DNA of 57,756 bases from Escherichia phage vB_EcoS_PJ16. Shown piece after piece: positions 9,714-37,697 of the stretch. The notes under the pieces are model-generated. The model had not been told where the DNA came from, made no database searches, and saw only the letters and a program-made list of their open reading frames with translations. Position 1 is the stretch's first letter; the number at the start of each line of letters is the position of its first letter. A program made the translations under genes and the position numbers. The stretch lies in sequence record OQ955832.1; one strand, written 5' to 3'.

Positions 9714-9860
9714 TCAAAACCCCTTACTTTTAGCAATTTGTTGTGCACGTTTTTTAGTGTGACCAGCAGCAATTAAGCGTTTAATTTCGGCTTTACGGCG
9801 TACAAAGTGATCACTGCGTGAATTTTCAACCCACGACTGACTAATGTTTCTTGGATTCAT
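9714..9860 (-). CDS. Hypothetical small protein (48 aa), paralog of 10425-10625 C-terminus
   Basis: Not in track; shares about 35-nt repeat encoding KRLIAAGHTKKR; ATGA-coupled. Confidence 0.4.
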   Translation of the reverse strand: MNPRNISQSWVENSRSDHFVRRKAEIKRLIAAGHTKKRAQQIAKSKGF

Positions 9861-10195
9861 AATTCTATAGCCTTTGTCAGATATGAATGTTTCAGAACTT
9901 CACAAATTGTGTCATAATATTCAAATGTAACAGCAATAGTGTCAGCCGTTCGCTGATAGAAAAGAAAACCCTGATCATCCAATTGTTCAAGTATTTCAAT
10001 TTCTTCACTTGAACAATTACCGGAAATTATTTTCCCACCATTCAATACACAGTGAAGAATGAAAGGTAATAAACGTAACTCATGTTTGGTTAACTCGCGT
10101 TTAGTTTTAAACTGATATAATTGTTTCAGTTCATCGGTAACCATTCCACGGTGTTCTGGTTTTACTGGTATTAACATGTTCATCACTCCTTTCAT
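9857..10195 (-). CDS. Hypothetical protein (112 aa)
   Basis: Track ORF. Confidence 0.5.
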   Translation of the reverse strand: MKGVMNMLIPVKPEHRGMVTDELKQLYQFKTKRELTKHELRLLPFILHCVLNGGKIISGNCSSEEIEILEQLDDQGFLFYQRTADTIAVTFEYYDTICEVLKHSYLTKAIEL

Positions 10196-12496: not shown

Positions 12497-12841
12497 TCAG
12501 TTAACATACTTCGCGATCAGTTTATCACAATCCTCGCGACAGGTAGCATACTTAAACAGGTCACTGGCTGCTTCTGCGCGGTAGTCAGTATCAATGGTGT
12601 AATGTTCATTAACATAATTATAGGCTGCAAGGTAATTGCTGAACATCCCCGTGGTTACCACTTTCGGTTGTTCCCTTACGACCTTACCGTTAAACAGATG
12701 TGCGATTAGCAGAATCAGACCACCGATCACAGGACTTGTGAGAAATGCGATAAAGAACCATACACCAGGGTTACGACCTGTTTGTTTGGCAACACCCGCG
12801 ACAACCAGAGAGAAAAGAATCCATAAAATAGCGAATAACAT
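12497..12841 (-). CDS. Hypothetical membrane protein (114 aa)
   Basis: Track ORF; two N-terminal TM helices; strong RBS AGGAGG. Confidence 0.5.
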   Translation of the reverse strand: MLFAILWILFSLVVAGVAKQTGRNPGVWFFIAFLTSPVIGGLILLIAHLFNGKVVREQPKVVTTGMFSNYLAAYNYVNEHYTIDTDYRAEAASDLFKYATCREDCDKLIAKYVN

Positions 12842-12869: not shown

Positions 12870-12916
12870 GTAGGTTACACATCCTTGTGCAATCCGTCAA
12901 GAATTATTTTAGATTA
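12870..12916 (-). promoter_or_regulatory. sigma70-type promoter with UP element (conserved family)
   Basis: -35 TTGACG (12895-12900), 17-bp spacer, -10 TAACCT; leader nearly identical to promoter at 27470. Confidence 0.55.
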
Positions 12917-13152
12917 TCATAGACAGGCGGTAAACCCATTGCGGCCTGTACAGACCGTTTTTCGTATTCCTCCCGAAGTTTCTGAAGCTGTTCAATACCG
13001 ATGTCACAACCACGCATTATATCAGCGCACAGGTCGTTGTAGGTCGCTTCAGATTGTTTGCTGTGTGGGTAATCAACACAGGATGGATCTGCAATAATGA
13101 CTTTCGGCAGATACGCGACAGTATCGCCCATTGCGTTTTTAAATATCGTCAT
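12904..13152 (-). CDS. Hypothetical protein (82 aa)
   Basis: Track ORF. Confidence 0.45.
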   Translation of the reverse strand: MTIFKNAMGDTVAYLPKVIIADPSCVDYPHSKQSEATYNDLCADIMRGCDIGIEQLQKLREEYEKRSVQAAMGLPPVYDNLK

Positions 13153-15245: not shown

Positions 15246-15254
15246 TGATATAAT
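15246..15254 (+). promoter_or_regulatory. Extended -10 element TGATATAAT (putative late promoter)
   Basis: TGnTATAAT with no clear -35, immediately upstream of hairpin and head gene. Confidence 0.4.
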
Positions 15255-15256
15255 CG

Positions 15257-15283
15257 GCCTCAGTGTGTTAACTGAGGCTTTTT
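15257..15283 (+). terminator. Hairpin plus T5 (terminator and/or RBS-sequestering leader)
   Basis: Stem gcctcag/ctgaggc; right arm contains the GAGG SD of the 15284 gene. Confidence 0.5.
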
Positions 15284-31124: not shown

Positions 31125-31480
31125 TCGGTGATCGCTATGATATTGACAAATGGAATTGTACACACGAGGTTAGTCAGTGGTATCAGGTCCACAACTACCC
31201 ACACGTATTGAAAACTGTTTCAGGTGATGAATGGGATATTGCGTTTGTCAGATGGATGCGAAAACGTTTTTCATCAATTACCACACCGGAACAAGGCGCG
31301 CTTGTACTGATGAAGAACAGATATTCAGGCGGTTTTCACGTTGGTGTGTGGGATTGTGGAATGGTTCATCATTGTTATCAGCCACCTGGTGATTCACCAG
31401 GACAGACAATCAGATCACCTTTAAGTATAATCAAGACAGCACATAAAGAAATCACGTTCTGGAGAATGAAAAGTGTCTAA
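31121..31480 (+). CDS. Tail assembly protein with NlpC/P60-like features (K-like, putative)
   Basis: 119 aa; conserved Cys and His (NCTHEV, VHH) in a K-like position. Confidence 0.4.
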   Translation: MIGDRYDIDKWNCTHEVSQWYQVHNYPHVLKTVSGDEWDIAFVRWMRKRFSSITTPEQGALVLMKNRYSGGFHVGVWDCGMVHHCYQPPGDSPGQTIRSPLSIIKTAHKEITFWRMKSV

Positions 31481-34001
31481 AGTCATCTATCACACTAATC
31501 CTGTTGAACACGCTGATAACGTTGACTTTGGTGAATGGATGCTGAAACGCTGGCCCGTGGGTACTGTTCGCCCGCGTGGGTTACTGATTTATAAAAACGA
31601 CGAAAACATTACCCAGAAATGGGTCACTGACCCCAGCGTATTAACTGATCCTGATGCTGTTTATCACATTTATGAATTACCAAAAGGTGGGGTGATTAGT
31701 GCAATAACGAAAGTTATTAGCACAATTCTAAACCCCATTTTAAAATTGTTCATGCCGAATACCAGTGCGTCGGCTAATCTTAAGAACTCACGTTCAGCGT
31801 CGTCTAACAACGCGCTTCAGGGGCGTACCAACGCTTCACGACCGGGTGAACGTATTTCTGATATCCGTGGTCGTGTACTGGCATATCCTGATCTGTTAAT
31901 GGACTACCGAATCTTTATTGACCGAACAGAATATGAAGTTCAGTTCCTGTGTCTGGGCGCTGGTGAATACGAAGTCGAAGACGTTCGTGACGGTATTACA
32001 CCTGCGGTAAATATAAGTGGTGAAAAATTAGACTTTTATAAAAAAGGTAATGCACCAGGGTATGGTTCTCCATATATGAATATCGGTGGTGCAATTGATA
32101 TTAACACTTTTCCGATCATGGTTGCTAAGTCATCGAACGAAGCAGACGGATCTGAAGTTAAGCCACCAAACTATGCTGATATTAGTAAAGCAAGTTTTAA
32201 AATTTACAGCACAGGTGAAATTGATACTACGATTTCCAGCGATGATAACACTACTATTGACTGGTCGGAACGTGCACCAATCGGTAGTAAAATACGTTTA
32301 TCGCAATTTTACAGTTTTACACCTAATACTTTACCGTTAAACACGTATGTACGTAATGACCTGTCCGGTGATTACGATGTTATTTATGCAGGTGAGAATA
32401 CGTTAATCATTGATACTAATGGTCGTGATGGTTGGGATGCTCTGTCTGAAAGTGGTCAGGCTGCGTATACACAGGCTTACTTGCGAAATGACGGTTACTG
32501 GGAATTTGAAACCACTGAAGGAAGTGGAAGTTTTTTATACAAATTTTCACCATCTCTTGACAGCACTATGCCGTATATTGTCGGACCTTATCTGATCGAT
32601 AGTGCGGATAAGCTGATGATCAACCTTTATGCACAGAATGGTGTGTATAAAACTGATGGTGATATTTATCCGTTTACCTGTGACTTCCAGGTAGTCTTGT
32701 CAGACCCGAACGGTGTAAAAGCGAATGTGACACACTCTATGTCTGTCAGTGGTCGCTATACAGAAGCTGTAGGCAGTTCATTAATTGTGGATAATCCTTT
32801 TGACGGTCCTGTCAATGTGTCTGTAAGACGACTGTCAAACACAGATAAAGATTTCGAAGGGTCTGTTGTTGACAACATCAAGTGGCGCGATTTATACGCT
32901 ATAACGAACGTTTCTCCGCGTTCCTATGGTGATGTGACATTGATTCATACAGTGACAAAAGCAACAAACGCGGCACTGAAACAAAAAGAACGTAAATTAA
33001 ACATGATTGCAACACGCGTGTATAACGATGTTGCAAGTAGTAATTTTGCAGATGTTGTAATGTCAATGCACACAGATCCTTTATTTGGTCGTCGCACATT
33101 GGACACTATTGATCGCGATGCTTTATATGCTGTTCAGGAACAACTTCTTGAATATTTTGGTGACCAACGAGCAATTGAAGTTGGCTATACGTTTGATAAT
33201 AACAGTACGACGTACGAAGAAGGATTGGACACTATCTGTAACACGGTGAATGTTAAACCGTATCAGATCGGTAGTGTATTGTATTTCTGGCCTGAATTAC
33301 CGCAAGACCAGTCTGCAATGCAGTTTGGTCATGCGTTTAAAATTCCTGACAGTGATAAACGCACACGTTCTTTTGCACCACCTAAAGAATATACTGGTGT
33401 TCAGGTTAAATATTTCGACCACGATGAAAAATCATATTTATATGTTACTAAAGGCGAAGAAACAAACCTTAATAAAATAGACCTTGTTGCATGTCAGTCG
33501 CGATACCTTGCAAACATCCGTGCTAATCGTGAGATGAATAAATTACGTTACCAGCGTATTACTCACGAGTGCACAGCACTTAGTATCGGGTTACAGGCTA
33601 CCCCGGGTATGCGTGTGGATATGATTGACAATACCCGTATGAAACAACACGAAGGTGTTGTTGTCGATGTTGACGGTTTAACACTTATTCTCAGCGATCC
33701 TGTTACATTCACCACGGGTAATACATACAGCATAACGTTAACACACCGACTGGGAACACTTGAAAACATTCCTGTAACTGCCGGGGATGATGAATTTTCA
33801 GTGGTAATGGCTTATCAACCATCTGAAGAAATTTACACGGGGTGGTTGCGTGACCGTACCGCATACGTGATCCGTACTGATGATGAAAGAAGTAAATTAG
33901 CAATGCTTGTTCAGAACATGGAACCGTCAGGAAGGGATAATAACTATCAGGTAGGTTTAACGTGCATCAATTACGATGCACGTTATTATCAGGATGATTA
34001 A
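31473..34001 (+). CDS. Tail tip / host specificity protein (I/J-like)
   Basis: 842 aa; last gene of tail module. Confidence 0.55.
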   Translation: MSKVIYHTNPVEHADNVDFGEWMLKRWPVGTVRPRGLLIYKNDENITQKWVTDPSVLTDPDAVYHIYELPKGGVISAITKVISTILNPILKLFMPNTSASANLKNSRSASSNNALQGRTNASRPGERISDIRGRVLAYPDLLMDYRIFIDRTEYEVQFLCLGAGEYEVEDVRDGITPAVNISGEKLDFYKKGNAPGYGSPYMNIGGAIDINTFPIMVAKSSNEADGSEVKPPNYADISKASFKIYSTGEIDTTISSDDNTTIDWSERAPIGSKIRLSQFYSFTPNTLPLNTYVRNDLSGDYDVIYAGENTLIIDTNGRDGWDALSESGQAAYTQAYLRNDGYWEFETTEGSGSFLYKFSPSLDSTMPYIVGPYLIDSADKLMINLYAQNGVYKTDGDIYPFTCDFQVVLSDPNGVKANVTHSMSVSGRYTEAVGSSLIVDNPFDGPVNVSVRRLSNTDKDFEGSVVDNIKWRDLYAITNVSPRSYGDVTLIHTVTKATNAALKQKERKLNMIATRVYNDVASSNFADVVMSMHTDPLFGRRTLDTIDRDALYAVQEQLLEYFGDQRAIEVGYTFDNNSTTYEEGLDTICNTVNVKPYQIGSVLYFWPELPQDQSAMQFGHAFKIPDSDKRTRSFAPPKEYTGVQVKYFDHDEKSYLYVTKGEETNLNKIDLVACQSRYLANIRANREMNKLRYQRITHECTALSIGLQATPGMRVDMIDNTRMKQHEGVVVDVDGLTLILSDPVTFTTGNTYSITLTHRLGTLENIPVTAGDDEFSVVMAYQPSEEIYTGWLRDRTAYVIRTDDERSKLAMLVQNMEPSGRDNNYQVGLTCINYDARYYQDD

Positions 34002-36037
34002 ATCAATCCATAAATGGCATTGTGTATTACGACACCCCCAACAACAGAGGAAACATTGAAATTAATTTCAGCTTTGTAAGCTCCTGGTGGAACACAATCT
34101 ACCAAAGCATAAAAATTGAACGTGCCTCCTGCTGAGATGTTATATCCCATGGAGTCCGCGACAGCATTTCCTTGTTGGTCAAGGAACCTAAGTGACGCCA
34201 GGGTGGTTGTTGTATTTTTAGCCCAAAAACCAAGCTGAAAATAACGACCTGGCTCACAATCAATGATTGTTTGGGTGAAATTAGCTGCTGCGTCAGATGA
34301 TGGTACAGATAAAACAAAAGAAGTTGAAAACATTAAATCATTAGGAACATCGTTTGTTGTAGTAGCAGTGACAACTCCTGTTCCAGTTTGCGAGAGTGTC
34401 CAGTTAGATATGTTTAAAAACTGTCCTGAGCCATTACTGATGCTATTAATATAAGGGCTTACAATGCTCCCTAAATTCCAGTTACTTGTGATAAATCCTG
34501 CCCGTGGATAGCACCCTCTGGACATTACTTTTTTGCTCGCGCCACCTATCAACTGTCTTGTGGGAAATCCGGTAGCAATCGTTGTATTCCCATAGAGGGG
34601 TAACGAGCAATTATTTAGGCTAACAACCCCATCGCCGTTGCTAACAATAGGTACACTGGTATACCCGTCTGGGAGTAGTATCGTCGAATTACTGACGGTT
34701 AATCGTGAACTGCCATCCACAGTAAACCCAACGAAACTCTGACCAGGTTGGTACTCAATGTTACCGTTTGTGAAAACCACTGTTGCGTTATCTGATAACG
34801 CAACAGTAGGGTCAAAATATCCTGATTTTTTACCTGCCGGTAGAGAGCAGCTATCGAATATAAATTGACCATTAACAAACGTGAAAGGTCCACCGTTGTC
34901 AACCATCCAGCAGTGATTAAATTTTATAACCTCACCGGAATTCGCTGGTGAATTGAAAATAGCAGAATTTGTAAAACTTCTGGACAACGCGCATTTATCA
35001 AAAAGAATACGATATGCATTATCAAGAAACTCAATTCCGGCAGTTGAGATAAACCCACTATTAGATATTCTTAACTCTGATACTACACCACTGGTAGAGC
35101 CACCGATAGCCAATTTCCTGGAACCTTTTCCGACGAATGACACACCACTCATCAAAGCAGTTGCGTTAACTGCATCTCTGTTAATGTAATCCGCGCCTGT
35201 ATTAATAATGGTTAGGTAGTAGTCACCGGTTACAGATGCAGTTTCTGTTAAAGTACATTTATTTTTTCCAATAAGTGCGCCTTTTGCTATGTCGAAAATA
35301 ATCGGTGTTGTTATCTCACCAGAAACAGGAACCACACAGTCAAATCCGGCAGCGTTTATTTTGTTGATGAATACCGCCAAATCTTCGGTTCCAGTATAAC
35401 CAGCATCATACACGTCCACGGTGCCGTTGAAGAATTTTCTTTTCCATACCACACCGTTTCCGGGGAAGGTAACAATATTGTCTACAGTAGTAGTCGCGCT
35501 AACAGCTACCATAATACCACCACCAAAATTAAACCCGCTCACATACGAATCAAGAATTATGGAATCACCAATTGATCCTGATATCGATGATAACTCAGAA
35601 ACTGATGATACAGTCCCTATATAAGACAAACCATTTGATTTGTTTAAATCAGAACGTAACATTAAATCCGTCTGATTAACCCAGTGTGTAGCATCAATAC
35701 CACCCGTAGTTGCAGGTGTTGAACCAGGTGGAACAATTTTAGGCAACATACCCATCCACTGGTAATAATTACCTTCTGATTCATATAGTAGTGTTTCCCA
35801 ACGATGGTTAATAGTACTACCGCCTTCAAACGAACCGTCTGCAGGTTTAAAACCAACTGAACTAAAAAAACCATCCAGTGTTTTGTTAGTAACTGATTCG
35901 CCACGGATTGTATCGGTTGCTTCCAGTGCAGGTTTACCGGTAGCGTCACGACTTTTTGCAACGTGTTCAATATGTAAAATCGCTTGTTTGCCTGTTTTCA
36001 AATCATCAGCACTGATATAATCGTTACAGTTAGCCAT
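33998..36037 (-). CDS. Tailspike / receptor-binding protein with beta-helix-like repeats
   Basis: Track ORF 33998-36064 trimmed to ATG 36037 (GGAG RBS); Gly/Ser/Thr/Asn-rich repetitive beta-strand pattern. Confidence 0.6.
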   Translation of the reverse strand: MANCNDYISADDLKTGKQAILHIEHVAKSRDATGKPALEATDTIRGESVTNKTLDGFFSSVGFKPADGSFEGGSTINHRWETLLYESEGNYYQWMGMLPKIVPPGSTPATTGGIDATHWVNQTDLMLRSDLNKSNGLSYIGTVSSVSELSSISGSIGDSIILDSYVSGFNFGGGIMVAVSATTTVDNIVTFPGNGVVWKRKFFNGTVDVYDAGYTGTEDLAVFINKINAAGFDCVVPVSGEITTPIIFDIAKGALIGKNKCTLTETASVTGDYYLTIINTGADYINRDAVNATALMSGVSFVGKGSRKLAIGGSTSGVVSELRISNSGFISTAGIEFLDNAYRILFDKCALSRSFTNSAIFNSPANSGEVIKFNHCWMVDNGGPFTFVNGQFIFDSCSLPAGKKSGYFDPTVALSDNATVVFTNGNIEYQPGQSFVGFTVDGSSRLTVSNSTILLPDGYTSVPIVSNGDGVVSLNNCSLPLYGNTTIATGFPTRQLIGGASKKVMSRGCYPRAGFITSNWNLGSIVSPYINSISNGSGQFLNISNWTLSQTGTGVVTATTTNDVPNDLMFSTSFVLSVPSSDAAANFTQTIIDCEPGRYFQLGFWAKNTTTTLASLRFLDQQGNAVADSMGYNISAGGTFNFYALVDCVPPGAYKAEINFNVSSVVGGVVIHNAIYGLI
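36013..36021 (+). promoter_or_regulatory. Extended -10 element TGATATAAT (putative late promoter for lysis cassette)
   Basis: Third copy of TGATATAAY motif, 43 nt upstream of 36064 ATG, embedded in tailspike 5' end. Confidence 0.35.
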
Positions 36038-36063
36038 CTTTAAGTCTCCAGGAGTGTAGAACA

Positions 36064-36387
36064 ATGTCTGATAACCCAGTGTTGAGGTATTGGCCTATAA
36101 TAGCATTTGTTGCCACGGGGTTGGTAGGTTACGGGGTAACTCAAAACCAAATCAATTCTAATGAAAAAGATATTGCAGATGCAAAAACCTATGCGCATGA
36201 GGCGCTTAATCTGGCAAAGCGAGTGGAATCCCGAGTGGATGTCCACGACATCAAAATCGAATATCAGGCAACACAGAACGCTGAAATCCTCACCAGTGTT
36301 AAAGAGCTAACACAGTCAACAAATGACCTGAAAGTTGTTATTGAAGGTTTGAAAGCGGAACAACGTAAAACCGGGAGTAAGCAATGA
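36064..36387 (+). CDS. Membrane protein with N-terminal TM helix and coiled coil (lysis-associated, putative)
   Basis: 107 aa; AGGAG RBS; first gene of lysis cassette. Confidence 0.5.
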   Translation: MSDNPVLRYWPIIAFVATGLVGYGVTQNQINSNEKDIADAKTYAHEALNLAKRVESRVDVHDIKIEYQATQNAEILTSVKELTQSTNDLKVVIEGLKAEQRKTGSKQ

Positions 36388-36773
36388 GTAACTTTAAATT
36401 CAGTCAGAGAAGTGAAAATAATCTGAAAGGGGTTAACCCGGATCTTGTGAAAATCGTGCGTCGGGCACTTCAGTTATCACCCGTTGATTTCGGTATCACA
36501 GAAGGTTTACGAACTGTTGAACGACAACGACAACTGGTTGCTGCAGGTAAAAGTCAGACGATGAACAGTCGCCATATTTCAGGCCATGCCGTGGATGTAT
36601 TCGCATATCCTACACCTGCTGGGTCGTGGGAATGGAAATACTATGAACAAATTGCCACTGCATTTAAACAGGCTGCAAAAGAACTGAACATCCCTGTTGA
36701 ATGGGGTGGTGACTGGAAAACCCTGAAAGATGGTCCACACTTCCAGTTACCACATGCAAAATATCCGGCGTGA
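36384..36773 (+). CDS. Endolysin, peptidase M15 family
   Basis: SRHISGHAVDV and DGPHFQL zinc-binding motifs. Confidence 0.8.
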   Translation: MSNFKFSQRSENNLKGVNPDLVKIVRRALQLSPVDFGITEGLRTVERQRQLVAAGKSQTMNSRHISGHAVDVFAYPTPAGSWEWKYYEQIATAFKQAAKELNIPVEWGGDWKTLKDGPHFQLPHAKYPA

Positions 36774-36783
36774 GATAACTGTC

Positions 36784-37014
36784 ATGGACAAGTTCAGCAT
36801 ATTACGTAACACAACCGGGGGGATTTCTTTAAGCCGCGCACAAGCGGCTTTAGGCTTCCTCGTGGTAACAGGCATTCTGATTTACCAGGCCGTGGATCGT
36901 ACACTTGATGATACAGTGCTGTTAACCTATTTCGGTTTCTGTATAGGTCAGTATGTTGGTGCTAAAAAAATCGCTGTAGATAAACAACGAGGTACGCCAA
37001 ATGACAACCCGTAG
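36784..37014 (+). CDS. Holin (putative, two TM helices)
   Basis: Track ORF 36730-37014 trimmed to ATG 36784; two hydrophobic helices. Confidence 0.45.
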   Translation: MDKFSILRNTTGGISLSRAQAALGFLVVTGILIYQAVDRTLDDTVLLTYFGFCIGQYVGAKKIAVDKQRGTPNDNP

Positions 37015-37399
37015 TGTGTTAATCACCGTTGTTGCAACCGTTCTTGTGTTAAGCATAGGTGCGTATACGTGTTACCACGCTGGGTATAAAGCACGGGTAA
37101 ATGAAGAACATCAGGAACGTTTAGACGATGCACAACGGGAACAACAACGGTTAAAGGCACAACAGGAACTGGCAGATGATGTACTTCGTGGTTTAGCTGA
37201 CTGGTCGCAGAATACTAAAATCGTGGAAATACGACATGAAAAGACTAATACTGTTTTTCGTAACGAGTGTCTTACTTCTGAATATCAACGCTTGTACAAC
37301 GAACGAGTTACCGAAGCAGAAGCCCGTTTATCAGGCCGCATTAGTTCAGAAGTGTCAGACCGAAAACCTTCCACGGCTGAACGGTCTGACAGGAAGTGA
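37001..37399 (+). CDS. i-spanin (Rz-like)
   Basis: N-terminal TM helix then charged coiled coil. Confidence 0.55.
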   Translation: MTTRSVLITVVATVLVLSIGAYTCYHAGYKARVNEEHQERLDDAQREQQRLKAQQELADDVLRGLADWSQNTKIVEIRHEKTNTVFRNECLTSEYQRLYNERVTEAEARLSGRISSEVSDRKPSTAERSDRK

Positions 37400-37484
37400 T
37401 TCAACAGATGTTAATGACCAGTGGTTAGATATTTATTTCAAATGTGCAACTATTCACAACGCATTAGTAGACAGTCTTCAGTAA
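37236..37484 (+). CDS. o-spanin (Rz1-like lipoprotein)
   Basis: Out-of-frame overlap with i-spanin; signal peptide with lipobox-like INAC. Confidence 0.5.
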   Translation: MKRLILFFVTSVLLLNINACTTNELPKQKPVYQAALVQKCQTENLPRLNGLTGSDSTDVNDQWLDIYFKCATIHNALVDSLQ

Positions 37485-37697
37485 ATCTTCAACCGATACT
37501 TCAATCCACGATGCGGGAACCGGATATTCAGTCCGGTACATGAACAAGGATGTTCCTATCAACCCGTGTGGATCTGTTTTAATCCCTCGCATGTTCAACA
37601 ATGGAAAAAACTGTTCGCGTGTTTGTGGCAACCGTGCAAAGCGTCCTGTCGGGCGTTTAGCAGGATCCATAGGGTTGAATTCAACGATTGTGGACAT
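37464..37697 (-). CDS. Hypothetical protein (77 aa)
   Basis: Track ORF; last gene of leftward replication operon. Confidence 0.4.
   Translation of the reverse strand: MSTIVEFNPMDPAKRPTGRFARLPQTREQFFPLLNMRGIKTDPHGLIGTSLFMYRTEYPVPASWIEVSVEDLLKTVY

What the first reader, a model, noticed from the sequence alone, without database searches (positions are those of the whole stretch)
33998..36064. Convergent minus-strand tailspike with beta-helix-like repeats and a late promoter embedded in its 5' end
The 679-aa receptor-binding protein is on the opposite strand to the tail module, overlapping the J-like gene by 4 nt at their 3' ends. Its first codons overlap a plus-strand TGATATAAT element and the RBS of the lysis cassette. 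This arrangement would allow host-range module exchange and couples tailspike and lysis control regions.
Basis: partly seen in the sequence, partly recalled or inferred. Interest (0 to 1): 0.45.

Follow-up and report, generated by a model that had tools for sequence, protein, structure and literature searches.

The report
Known O78 tailspike, 9NA-like phage
This is the ordinary, already described tailspike (receptor-binding enzyme) gene of the published E. coli phage vB_EcoS_PJ16, lying backwards between the tail and lysis genes as in all 9NA-like phages; the one mildly new point is that conserved promoter-like motifs for the lysis genes and for the tailspike seem to lie inside each other's first codons.

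Summary
The gene is real. It is a minus-strand tailspike, 33998-36037, 679 aa from the ATG. The window matches the published genome of Escherichia phage vB_EcoS_PJ16, a 9NA-like siphovirus. Residues 65-679 match the solved CBA120 TSP4 structure (5W6H, E=0), a beta-helix enzyme that cleaves O78 O-antigen, and an AlphaFold model returns 5W6H as its top hit. Residues 1-56 are the anchor shared by all 9NA-like phages, and the rest is a swapped receptor-binding module. The opposite orientation and the horizontal exchange of this gene were described for 9NA in 2014. The 4-nt TTAA stop overlap is confirmed, but only this phage and AVIO78A have it; several relatives carry a terminator in a spacer there. 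TGATATAAT at 36013-36021 is real and invariant in all 20 related sequences, and its three synonymous sites are fixed while neighbouring ones vary. It is therefore a plausible sigma-70 extended -10 promoter for the lysis cassette. 'Late' timing and functional coupling are untested. A reciprocal conserved TGnTATnAT lies on the minus strand at 36097-36105, inside the holin gene, which suggests face-to-face promoters. Verdict: already known and of low interest.

The parts
33998..36037 (-). Tailspike CDS, 679 aa plus stop, ATG at 36037
   Evidence: ORF list and translation. 100% identical to the 'tail fibers protein' of Escherichia phage vB_EcoS_PJ16, 679 aa. GGAG lies 8 nt upstream of the ATG, and this start is conserved in all relatives.
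35870..36037 (-). N-terminal anchor module (aa 1-56), shared by all 9NA-like phages
   Evidence: DNA homology to Nonanavirus, Sashavirus and Carvajevirus relatives starts at window 35868-35871. The protein alignment is nearly identical up to TLDG56 and then diverges.
35675..35836 (-). Tail_spike_N (TSP1/Gp66 D1-type head domain), aa 68-121
   Evidence: Pfam PF18668, E=1.7e-13. Matches the N-terminal domains of several solved tailspikes.
34001..35651 (-). Swapped receptor-binding/enzymatic module (aa ~129-679): neck, beta-helix, C-terminal lectin-like domain
   Evidence: 87.9% nt identity to CBA120 orf213 (TSP4) and 94.4% to PD06/PD114. 5W6H E=0 over aa 65-679. AF2 model with Foldseek top hit 5W6H, then K2-2 TSP and other beta-helix depolymerases.
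33998..34001 (.). TTAA holding both stop codons (4-nt convergent overlap)
   Evidence: Read directly from the sequence. The same junction is in AVIO78A. Relatives have spacers of 28-91 nt or extra ORFs instead.
31473..34001 (+). J-like tail tip protein gene, convergent partner
   Evidence: ORF list. Weak FNIII-A_GpJ hit. Annotated as tail tip protein in relatives.
36013..36021 (+). Extended -10 motif TGATATAAT (hexamer 36016-36021), candidate lysis-cassette promoter, predicted TSS ~36028; no -35
   Evidence: Invariant in all 20 related sequences. Codons D6, Y7 and I8 are nucleotide-invariant, while only 10 of 55 third positions are invariant overall. The simple -35/-10 scan did not call it.
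36038..36063 (.). 26-nt divergent spacer; the palindrome CTCCAGGAG (36046-36054) supplies both Shine-Dalgarno sequences
   Evidence: Read from the sequence. Spacer is 26-28 nt in all relatives. Both predicted leaders are unstructured, z about +0.9.
36097..36105 (-). Minus-strand extended -10-like motif TGCTATTAT inside holin codons 12-14, candidate tailspike promoter, predicted TSS ~36090
   Evidence: TGnTATnAT is invariant in all relatives, and is the perfect TGTTATAAT in Sasha and PDP46. Holin codons I13-V16 have invariant third positions against 15 of 96 overall. Found post hoc.
36064..36387 (+). First lysis gene (putative holin/antiholin, one TMD)
   Evidence: Annotation in AVIO78A, Sasha and 9NA. 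Only a sub-threshold Pfam DUF7365 hit.
36384..37484 (+). Rest of the lysis cassette: endolysin (36384-36773, Peptidase_M15_4), 2-TMD membrane protein (36784-37014), i-spanin (37001-37399), embedded o-spanin (37236-37484)
   Evidence: Pfam and the annotation of relatives.
33960..33985 (.). Strong conserved hairpin inside the 3' end of the J-like gene, 13 nt past the tailspike stop on the minus strand
   Evidence: Fold energy -18.5/-17.4 kcal/mol, z -5.2/-6.6. Nucleotide-invariant in 8 of 9 relatives. Annotated as a terminator in AVIO78A and Sasha. There is no U-tract.

Best explanation
The gene encodes the single tailspike of a 9NA-like siphovirus, Escherichia phage vB_EcoS_PJ16.

The protein is modular. 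A 56-residue N-terminal anchor, conserved across the whole 9NA-like clade, is inferred by analogy with other modular tailspikes to fix the spike to the tail tip. A D1-type head domain and neck follow. After that comes a horizontally acquired receptor-binding module closely related to CBA120 TSP4: a parallel beta-helix that, by homology, binds and cleaves the E. coli O78 O-antigen, followed by a C-terminal lectin-like domain. Host range changes when everything downstream of codon 56 or codon ~129 is recombined.

The gene sits in the position and orientation that are ancestral for the clade. It is convergent with the J-like tail tip gene and divergent from the lysis cassette, which starts 26 nt away. 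In this lineage the acquired module ends exactly at the J stop codon, so the usual spacer, which carries a terminator in several relatives, is missing and the stops overlap as TTAA.

Because the divergent spacer is too short to hold promoters, the lysis cassette is most likely transcribed by host sigma-70 RNA polymerase from a -35-less extended -10 promoter. This is TGATATAAT at 36013-36021, embedded in tailspike codons 6-9 (inferred, about 0.6).

The tailspike may in turn be transcribed from a reciprocal extended -10 at 36105-36097, inside holin codons 12-14 (inferred, about 0.35-0.4). That would give face-to-face promoters about 62 nt apart and complementary 5' leaders.
For: Identity of the phage: P0001 is 100% identical, named as from vB_EcoS_PJ16, on a contig of 57756 bp, the same length as the window. 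The accession OQ955832.1 and the PJ16 publication are cited in PMC12137930.

Fold and function:
- 5W6H E=0, 1138 bits, over aa 65-679.
- The PhaxI TSP4 orthologue is 83% identical over 90% of the query.
- AF2 model pLDDT 77.9, Foldseek top hit 5W6H at E=7e-77, followed by other beta-helix depolymerases.
- TSP4 cleaves O78 O-antigen, and its D3 domain is a trimeric beta-helix with the enzymatic activity (PMC8825819; PMC10408124).
- The nearest relative, AVIO78A, was isolated on an O78 strain and lyses O78 strains only.

Modularity:
- Homology to the clade stops at window 35868-35871, the codon 56/57 boundary.
- The same anchor is joined to many different C-terminal domains: PF12708, PF13229, PF09251, PF13088, PF13472.
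- The same receptor-binding module is joined to P22-type head-binding, Kuttervirus and podovirus anchors.

Arrangement: it is conserved in 9NA, SP069, Sasha, Bas82, Carvaje, KpnBU9, PDP46 and KPN_H2, and was published for 9NA (PMC4153490).

Promoter:
- TGATATAAT is invariant in all 20 sequences, even where flanking bases and residues change.
- All three of its synonymous sites are fixed, while only 10 of 55 third positions are invariant overall. The hypergeometric probability is about 0.005, my arithmetic.
- The same TGATATAATC(G/A) lies 29-30 nt upstream of the head-morphogenesis gene in both the window and 9NA.
- No phage RNA polymerase or sigma factor is annotated in 9NA or Carvaje.

Reciprocal motif.
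Against: No transcript data exist for any 9NA-like phage that I could find, so neither promoter is shown to fire. There is no -35 element, and the simple promoter scan did not report either site. By count, TGNTATAAT is not enriched in the window.

Synonymous-site conservation near the 5' end of a gene can also reflect constraints on translation initiation. The relatives are not independent lineages; there are perhaps 4-5 effective ones.

The minus-strand motif was found after looking at conserved blocks, so its statistics are optimistic. TGNTATNAT occurs 14 times in the window against 9.7 expected.

O78 specificity and enzymatic activity are inferred by homology, not tested. The model's overall rmsd to 5W6H is high (12 A) because domain orientations in a monomer model are unreliable.
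Confidence: 0.85

Rival explanations
1. The TGATATAAT (and the minus-strand TGnTATnAT) is conserved only because it lies in strongly constrained codons close to the 5' ends of two genes (protein sequence, AT-rich codon choice, unstructured initiation regions). The lysis cassette and the tailspike are then transcribed from promoters elsewhere or by read-through.
For: The motif count is not above chance. There is no -35, and the consensus scan did not call it. The residues DYIS and WPII are themselves invariant or nearly so. Other scattered codons are also nucleotide-invariant.
Against: The 26-28-nt spacer leaves no other room for a promoter directly upstream of the holin. Read-through from the tail operon would need 2 kb of antisense transcription through the tailspike gene, past a strong conserved hairpin and, in several relatives, past canonical terminators. 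The fixed synonymous sites coincide exactly with the motif positions, while holin codons 2-12 and tailspike codons 3-5 and 9-13 vary freely. In L013 the base flanking the 9-mer changed, and changed an amino acid, while the 9-mer stayed.
Confidence: 0.25
2. The protein is a non-enzymatic tail fibre, as the GenBank name 'tail fibers protein' suggests, and binds a receptor without depolymerising it.
For: The database name. No catalytic residues were checked here.
Against: Near-full-length, high-identity match to the 'enzymatically active domain' of TSP4 (5W6H). TSP4 has been shown to cleave O78 O-antigen (PMC8825819). 9NA's orthologous-position protein is an endorhamnosidase (PMC4153490).
Confidence: 0.03
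3. Translation starts at the TTG at 36064, giving 688 aa as annotated for AVIO78A_065. The coding region would then truly overlap the holin RBS and start codon.
For: The open frame extends to 36064, and AVIO78A is annotated that way.
Against: PJ16's own protein record is 679 aa. All other relatives start at the ATG, which has a conserved GGAG 8 nt upstream. Spacer lengths of 27-28 nt in relatives shift the frame of the extension.
Confidence: 0.04

Closest known systems
CBA120 (Kuttervirus) tailspike protein 4, orf213; structure 5W6H
   Same: The receptor-binding/enzymatic part (aa 65-679) is homologous over its full length: E=0, 87.9% nt identity over window 34002-35649, and top structural hit. 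It has the same D1-type head, neck, beta-helix and C-terminal domain, and the same expected O78 O-antigen specificity.
   Different: TSP4 is 1036 aa, with a 335-residue N-terminus (AD-XD1-XD2-XD3) that builds a branched four-spike complex on a myovirus baseplate. Here a 56-residue 9NA-type anchor replaces that, and the phage carries a single spike on a siphovirus tail.
Salmonella phage 9NA gp55 tailspike and its locus (Casjens et al. 2014, PMC4153490)
   Same: Same genomic position and opposite orientation, between the J-like tail protein and the holin/endolysin/spanin genes. The N-terminal 56 residues are nearly identical. The invariant TGATATAAT sits in codons 6-9 and TGnTATnAT in the holin gene.
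   Different: 9NA carries a P22-like endorhamnosidase module for Salmonella O-antigen. It has a 91-nt spacer with a canonical hairpin-plus-T terminator after the J-like gene, instead of a 4-nt overlap.
Escherichia phage vB_EcoS_AVIO78A gene AVIO78A_065
   Same: 91.8% nt identity across the whole locus, the same TTAA stop overlap, the same O78-type module, and an O78 host.
   Different: Annotated from the upstream TTG (688 aa). No promoter is annotated at this locus.
Face-to-face (convergent) promoter pairs with overlapping transcripts, e.g. coliphage 186 pR/pL (from my own knowledge, not tested here)
   Same: If both motifs fire, the two start sites face each other about 62 nt apart and the transcripts overlap at their 5' ends. 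That is the geometry known to produce transcriptional interference.
   Different: Here both promoters would lie inside coding sequence of the opposing gene, and the overlap covers both ribosome-binding sites. No lysis/lysogeny switch is involved. Nothing is experimentally shown.

Membership tests
Phage tailspike, TSP4/O78 receptor-binding subtype | Parallel beta-helix catalytic domain homologous to TSP4 D3 | tested here: met
   phmmer against PDB: 5W6H E=0 over aa 65-679. AF2 model with Foldseek top hit 5W6H at E=7e-77, then other beta-helix depolymerases.
Phage tailspike, TSP4/O78 receptor-binding subtype | Modular build: genus-conserved N-terminal anchor plus exchangeable receptor-binding domain | tested here: met
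   The anchor (aa 1-56) is shared with all 9NA-like phages, and the rest is shared with Kuttervirus, PD06, podovirus and P22-like prophage spikes.
Phage tailspike, TSP4/O78 receptor-binding subtype | Homotrimer | not tested
   Only a monomer was modelled. Trimer formation is inferred from 5W6H, which was deposited with 3 chains, and from PMC8825819.
Phage tailspike, TSP4/O78 receptor-binding subtype | Cleaves or binds E. coli O78 O-antigen | not testable with these tools
   Inferred from TSP4 biochemistry (PMC8825819, PMC10408124) and from the O78 host range of AVIO78A.
9NA-like (Nonanavirus/Sashavirus/Carvajevirus) tailspike locus | Tailspike gene on the opposite strand, between the J-like tail tip gene and the holin-endolysin-spanin cassette | tested here: met
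   Same order and orientation in 10 annotated relatives.
Sigma-70 extended -10 promoter | TGnTATAAT motif at a workable distance upstream of a gene on the same strand | tested here: met
   TGATATAAT at 36013-36021. The predicted TSS at ~36028 is 36 nt before the holin ATG, with AGGAG in between.
Sigma-70 extended -10 promoter | Conservation beyond what coding constraint explains | tested here: met
   Invariant in 20 sequences. All 3 embedded synonymous sites are fixed against 10 of 55 overall. The lineages are not independent, so the strength is moderate.
Sigma-70 extended -10 promoter | Transcription actually initiates there, and its timing is late | not testable with these tools
   No TSS or RNA-seq data were found for this clade. 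Zeng et al. 2019 (PMC6819911) is not held.
Face-to-face promoter pair with transcriptional interference | Two active promoters firing toward each other with overlapping transcripts | tested here: inconclusive
   Only motif-level and conservation evidence exists for the second, minus-strand element at 36097-36105. No operator-like repeats are present.
Intrinsic terminator between convergent genes | GC-rich hairpin followed by a U-tract in the inter-gene spacer | tested here: not met
   There is no spacer (4-nt overlap). The scan found no terminator at the junction. The hairpin at 33960-33985 is strong but has no U-tract. 9NA, SP069, KpnBU9 and PDP46 do have canonical ones.

The most novel reading that the evidence does not exclude
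Across the 9NA-like clade, the tailspike and lysis transcription units are driven by two -35-less extended -10 promoters that face each other about 62 nt apart. Each is embedded in the first codons of the opposing gene. The two mRNAs would therefore carry complementary 5' leaders covering both Shine-Dalgarno sequences and both start codons. Polymerase collision, promoter occlusion and/or leader pairing would then set the ratio or timing of tailspike production against lysis. This regulatory design has not been described for this phage group.
Probability: 0.3. Interest if true: 0.4.

Novelty: already known. Interest (0 to 1): 0.12.

Why it matters
The practical value is modest. The result confirms that PJ16 and AVIO78A are O78-specific through a TSP4-type depolymerase module, which is useful for choosing or engineering phages against avian pathogenic E. 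coli. It also locates two exchange junctions, after codon 56 and near codon 129, that could be used for tailspike swapping on a 9NA-like chassis.

Anyone recoding the 5' ends of the tailspike or holin genes should know that these codons probably carry the promoter of the opposite gene. If the face-to-face promoter reading holds, it would be a small, experimentally tractable example of transcriptional interference in a virulent siphovirus whose gene regulation has not been studied.

Tried and rejected
- Tandem Repeats Finder on 33900-36200 found no repeats, so the 'repeats' are not a sequence feature.
- The -35/-10 consensus scan did not report either candidate promoter. Overall promoter-like and terminator-like counts equal the shuffle expectation.
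- A search for direct or inverted repeats (operator-like sites) in 35950-36160 found none.
- Folding of the two predicted leaders showed no special structure, z about +0.9, so I dropped the idea that the palindromic SD region forms a regulatory hairpin.
- I considered the hairpin at 33960-33985 as the missing bidirectional terminator. It is strong and conserved but lacks a U-tract on both strands and lies upstream of the J stop codon, so I left it unassigned.
- I looked for a motif shared upstream of the four TGATATAAT copies and saw none beyond the 9-mer plus C. Two of the four copies (15246 and 36013) have syntenic counterparts in 9NA, and only the lysis one is exact in Carvaje.
- The key comparative paper on 9NA-like phages (Zeng et al. 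2019, PMC6819911) is not held. A literature search for TSS or RNA-seq data on this clade returned nothing relevant.
- PJ16 itself is not in the 'phages' BLAST collection. Its identity came from the protein database.
Full report
**What the window is.** The 679-aa product of the minus-strand gene is 100% identical to the 'tail fibers protein' of Escherichia phage vB_EcoS_PJ16. That protein sits on a contig of 57,756 bp, which is exactly the window length. PJ16 (OQ955832.1) is a published lytic phage of avian pathogenic E. coli (cited in PMC12137930 and PMC12895675). At DNA level the locus is 91.8% identical to the O78 phage vB_EcoS_AVIO78A. It is collinear with Sashavirus, Nonanavirus and Carvajevirus phages: Sasha, Sergei, Solent, 9NA, SP069, Bas82 and several Klebsiella phages.

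**Checking the observation.**
- *The gene.* An ORF runs on the minus strand from 36064 (TTG) to 33998, 688 codons.
- *The start codon.* The ATG has GGAG 8 nt upstream. PJ16's own record and all relatives except AVIO78A use it. In relatives the spacer to the holin gene is 27-28 nt instead of 26, which throws the TTG extension out of frame.
- *The 3' overlap.* The J-like gene stop (TAA, 33999-34001) and the tailspike stop (TAA on the minus strand, 34000-33998) share TTAA, a 4-nt overlap as stated.
- *The motif.* TGATATAAT is at 36013-36021 on the + strand, across tailspike codons 6-9.
- *The holin RBS.* AGGAG at 36050-36054 is not within the tailspike's first codons. It lies in the 26-nt spacer. 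Together with the complement of the tailspike's own SD it forms the palindrome CTCCAGGAG at 36046-36054.
- *Repeats.* No sequence repeats exist in the gene.

**What the protein is.**
- *Sequence.* A search of the PDB gives CBA120 tailspike protein 4 (5W6H) at E=0, 1138 bits, aligned over residues 65-679. The PhaxI orthologue of TSP4 is 83% identical over 90% of the query.
- *Model.* An AlphaFold2 model built on 35 homologues (mean pLDDT 77.9) is almost all beta from residue ~190 on. Its best Foldseek hit is 5W6H, described as the 'enzymatically active domain', at E=7e-77. Other beta-helix depolymerases follow, such as K2-2 TSP, Kp7 gp52, DpK2 and CBA120 TSP2/3/1. The C-terminal ~135 residues also hit carbohydrate-binding jelly rolls.
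- *Function by homology.* TSP4 cleaves the E. coli O78 O-antigen, and its D3 domain is a trimeric beta-helix carrying the activity (PMC8825819, PMC10408124). AVIO78A was isolated on an O78 strain and lyses O78 strains only.
- *Other domains.* Pfam finds the Tail_spike_N (TSP1/Gp66 D1) domain at residues 68-121.

**Modularity.** DNA homology to all 9NA-like relatives begins at window 35868-35871, exactly the codon 56/57 boundary. The first 56 residues are nearly identical across the clade and the sequences diverge right after TLDG56. High-identity DNA homology to Kuttervirus TSP4 (87.9%) and to PD06/PD114 (94.4%) covers 34002-35651, that is, residue ~129 to the last codon.

The protein database shows both sides of the mosaic. 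The same anchor is fused to pectate-lyase-like, generic beta-helix, P22 endorhamnosidase, sialidase/BNR and GDSL-esterase modules. The same O78-type module is fused to P22-type head-binding domains, the 1036-aa Kuttervirus anchor and podovirus anchors.

Host-range module exchange is therefore well supported. It happens in many genomic arrangements, so the reversed orientation is not what enables it. Casjens et al. [quoted passage not shown] The conserved-anchor, variable-RBD architecture of this clade is also described in the PDP46 paper.

**The convergent junction.** Only PJ16 and AVIO78A have the 4-nt overlap. 9NA, SP069, KpnBU9 and PDP46 have spacers with textbook hairpin-plus-T terminators. 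Bas82 has an extra ORF there, and Carvaje, KpnBU9 and PDP46 have small ORFs after the tailspike. Homology to TSP4 runs to within one base of the last sense codon, so the overlap looks like a by-product of where the acquired module was joined.

A strong palindromic hairpin lies at 33960-33985 inside the last codons of the J-like gene, with fold energy -18.5/-17.4 kcal/mol and z -5.2/-6.6. It is nucleotide-invariant in 8 of 9 relatives. It lacks a U-tract, and its role is open.

**The embedded promoter.** By occurrence alone the motif is unremarkable: 4 copies against 2.2 expected. It has no -35, so the consensus scan missed it. Conservation is what makes it worth noting.
- TGATATAAT is invariant in all 20 related sequences examined, including Klebsiella phages at ~70% identity. 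In one IMG/VR contig the adjacent base changed, turning D6 into N, while the 9-mer did not.
- In the 56 anchor codons only 10 of 55 third positions are invariant. Three of them are the consecutive codons D6-Y7-I8 that make up the motif, and two more (K14, T15) lie where a -35 would be.
- The hypergeometric chance that three given sites are all among the invariant ones is about 0.005 (my arithmetic).
- The same TGATATAATC(G/A) lies 29-30 nt upstream of the SPP1-gp7-like head-morphogenesis gene in both this phage and 9NA.
- No phage RNA polymerase or sigma factor is annotated in 9NA or Carvaje, which fits reliance on host sigma-70 promoters.
- The spacer to the holin gene is only 26-28 nt and is filled by two ribosome-binding sites. 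A lysis promoter therefore has to lie inside the tailspike gene, unless the cassette is read through from 2 kb away in antisense.

I rate a functional lysis promoter at about 0.6. Nothing here speaks to 'late' timing.

On the minus strand, inside holin codons 12-14, lies TGCTATTAT (36105 to 36097). In every relative it is TGnTATnAT: TGTTATGAT in 9NA, SP069 and the Klebsiella group, and the perfect TGTTATAAT in Sasha and PDP46.
- Holin codons I13, A14, F15 and V16 have invariant third positions against 15 of 96 overall, while codons 2-12 vary freely.
- The endolysin gene downstream is replaced in the Klebsiella group. The holin gene is therefore the only universally conserved sequence upstream of the tailspike, which is where a clade-wide tailspike promoter would have to be.
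- If both motifs fire, the start sites (~36028 + and ~36090 -) face each other about 62 nt apart. The two leaders would be complementary across both SDs and both start codons, the geometry known from face-to-face promoter pairs such as 186 pR/pL (my own knowledge).
- I found this motif after seeing the conserved block, and the looser pattern is common (14 copies against 9.7 expected). I give it about 0.35-0.4.
- No operator-like repeats or leader structures were found.

**Verdict.** The gene, its fold, its likely O78 specificity, its orientation and its modular exchange are all known biology in a published genome. The promoter idea is reasonable and gains support from conservation, but it remains an inference, and the 'late' label and the functional coupling are untested. 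The only part with any novelty is the possible face-to-face promoter pair embedded in the two 5' coding regions, which a single 5'-end mapping experiment would settle.

Noticed in passing
window 33960-33985: Perfect 10-bp palindrome (AACGTGCATC / GATGCACGTT, loop AATTAC) inside the last 14 codons of the J-like gene. It forms a strong hairpin on both strands (z -5.2 and -6.6), and the 33-nt block is nucleotide-invariant in 8 of 9 relatives. It has no U-tract. AVIO78A and Sasha annotate it as a terminator. Its function is unclear.
   Followed up: partly
window 15246-15283 (and L020 13704-13742 in 9NA): A second TGATATAATC(G/A), followed directly by a GC-rich hairpin (15256-15279) and a T-run that abuts the ATG of the head-morphogenesis gene. 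The predicted start site falls inside the 5' arm of the hairpin. Upstream read-through transcripts would therefore meet a terminator, while transcripts from this promoter would not. The layout is kept in 9NA, with a G-C to G-U change in the stem and a different loop.
   Followed up: partly
window 37464-37484: A second convergent overlap: the o-spanin gene (+, ends 37484) and the minus-strand gene 37464..37697 overlap by 21 nt at their 3' ends. The lysis cassette is thus a plus-strand island with no terminator spacer at this end.
   Followed up: no
L001 3999-6065 (AVIO78A_065): The AVIO78A tail fibre CDS is annotated from a TTG that overlaps the holin start codon (688 aa). Comparison with PJ16 and nine other relatives indicates the ATG 27 nt downstream is the real start.
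   Followed up: yes
window 10113-10121 (+) and 13016-13024 (-): Two more exact TGATATAAT copies. One lies on the + strand inside the 5' part of the minus-strand ORF 9857..10195, another possible embedded divergent promoter. The other lies on the minus strand inside ORF 12904..13152, upstream of gene 12497..12841. No exact TGNTATAAT was found at corresponding positions in the 9NA or Carvaje scans.
   Followed up: partly
window 34001-34405 (tailspike aa ~545-679): The C-terminal domain of the model resembles carbohydrate-binding jelly rolls (Foldseek hits to CBM61, CBM16, CBM11 and the Fbs1 sugar-binding domain). This would be the TSP 'D4' domain, whose function is unknown.
   Followed up: no
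L004 1197-1589; L007 1224-1623; L008 1241-1510; L009 965-1228: The slot between the J-like gene and the tailspike is variable among relatives. Bas82 has an SSB-like ORF on the + strand there. Carvaje, KpnBU9 and PDP46 have one or two small minus-strand ORFs downstream of the tailspike, possibly chaperones or cargo that travelled with the swapped module.
   Followed up: no
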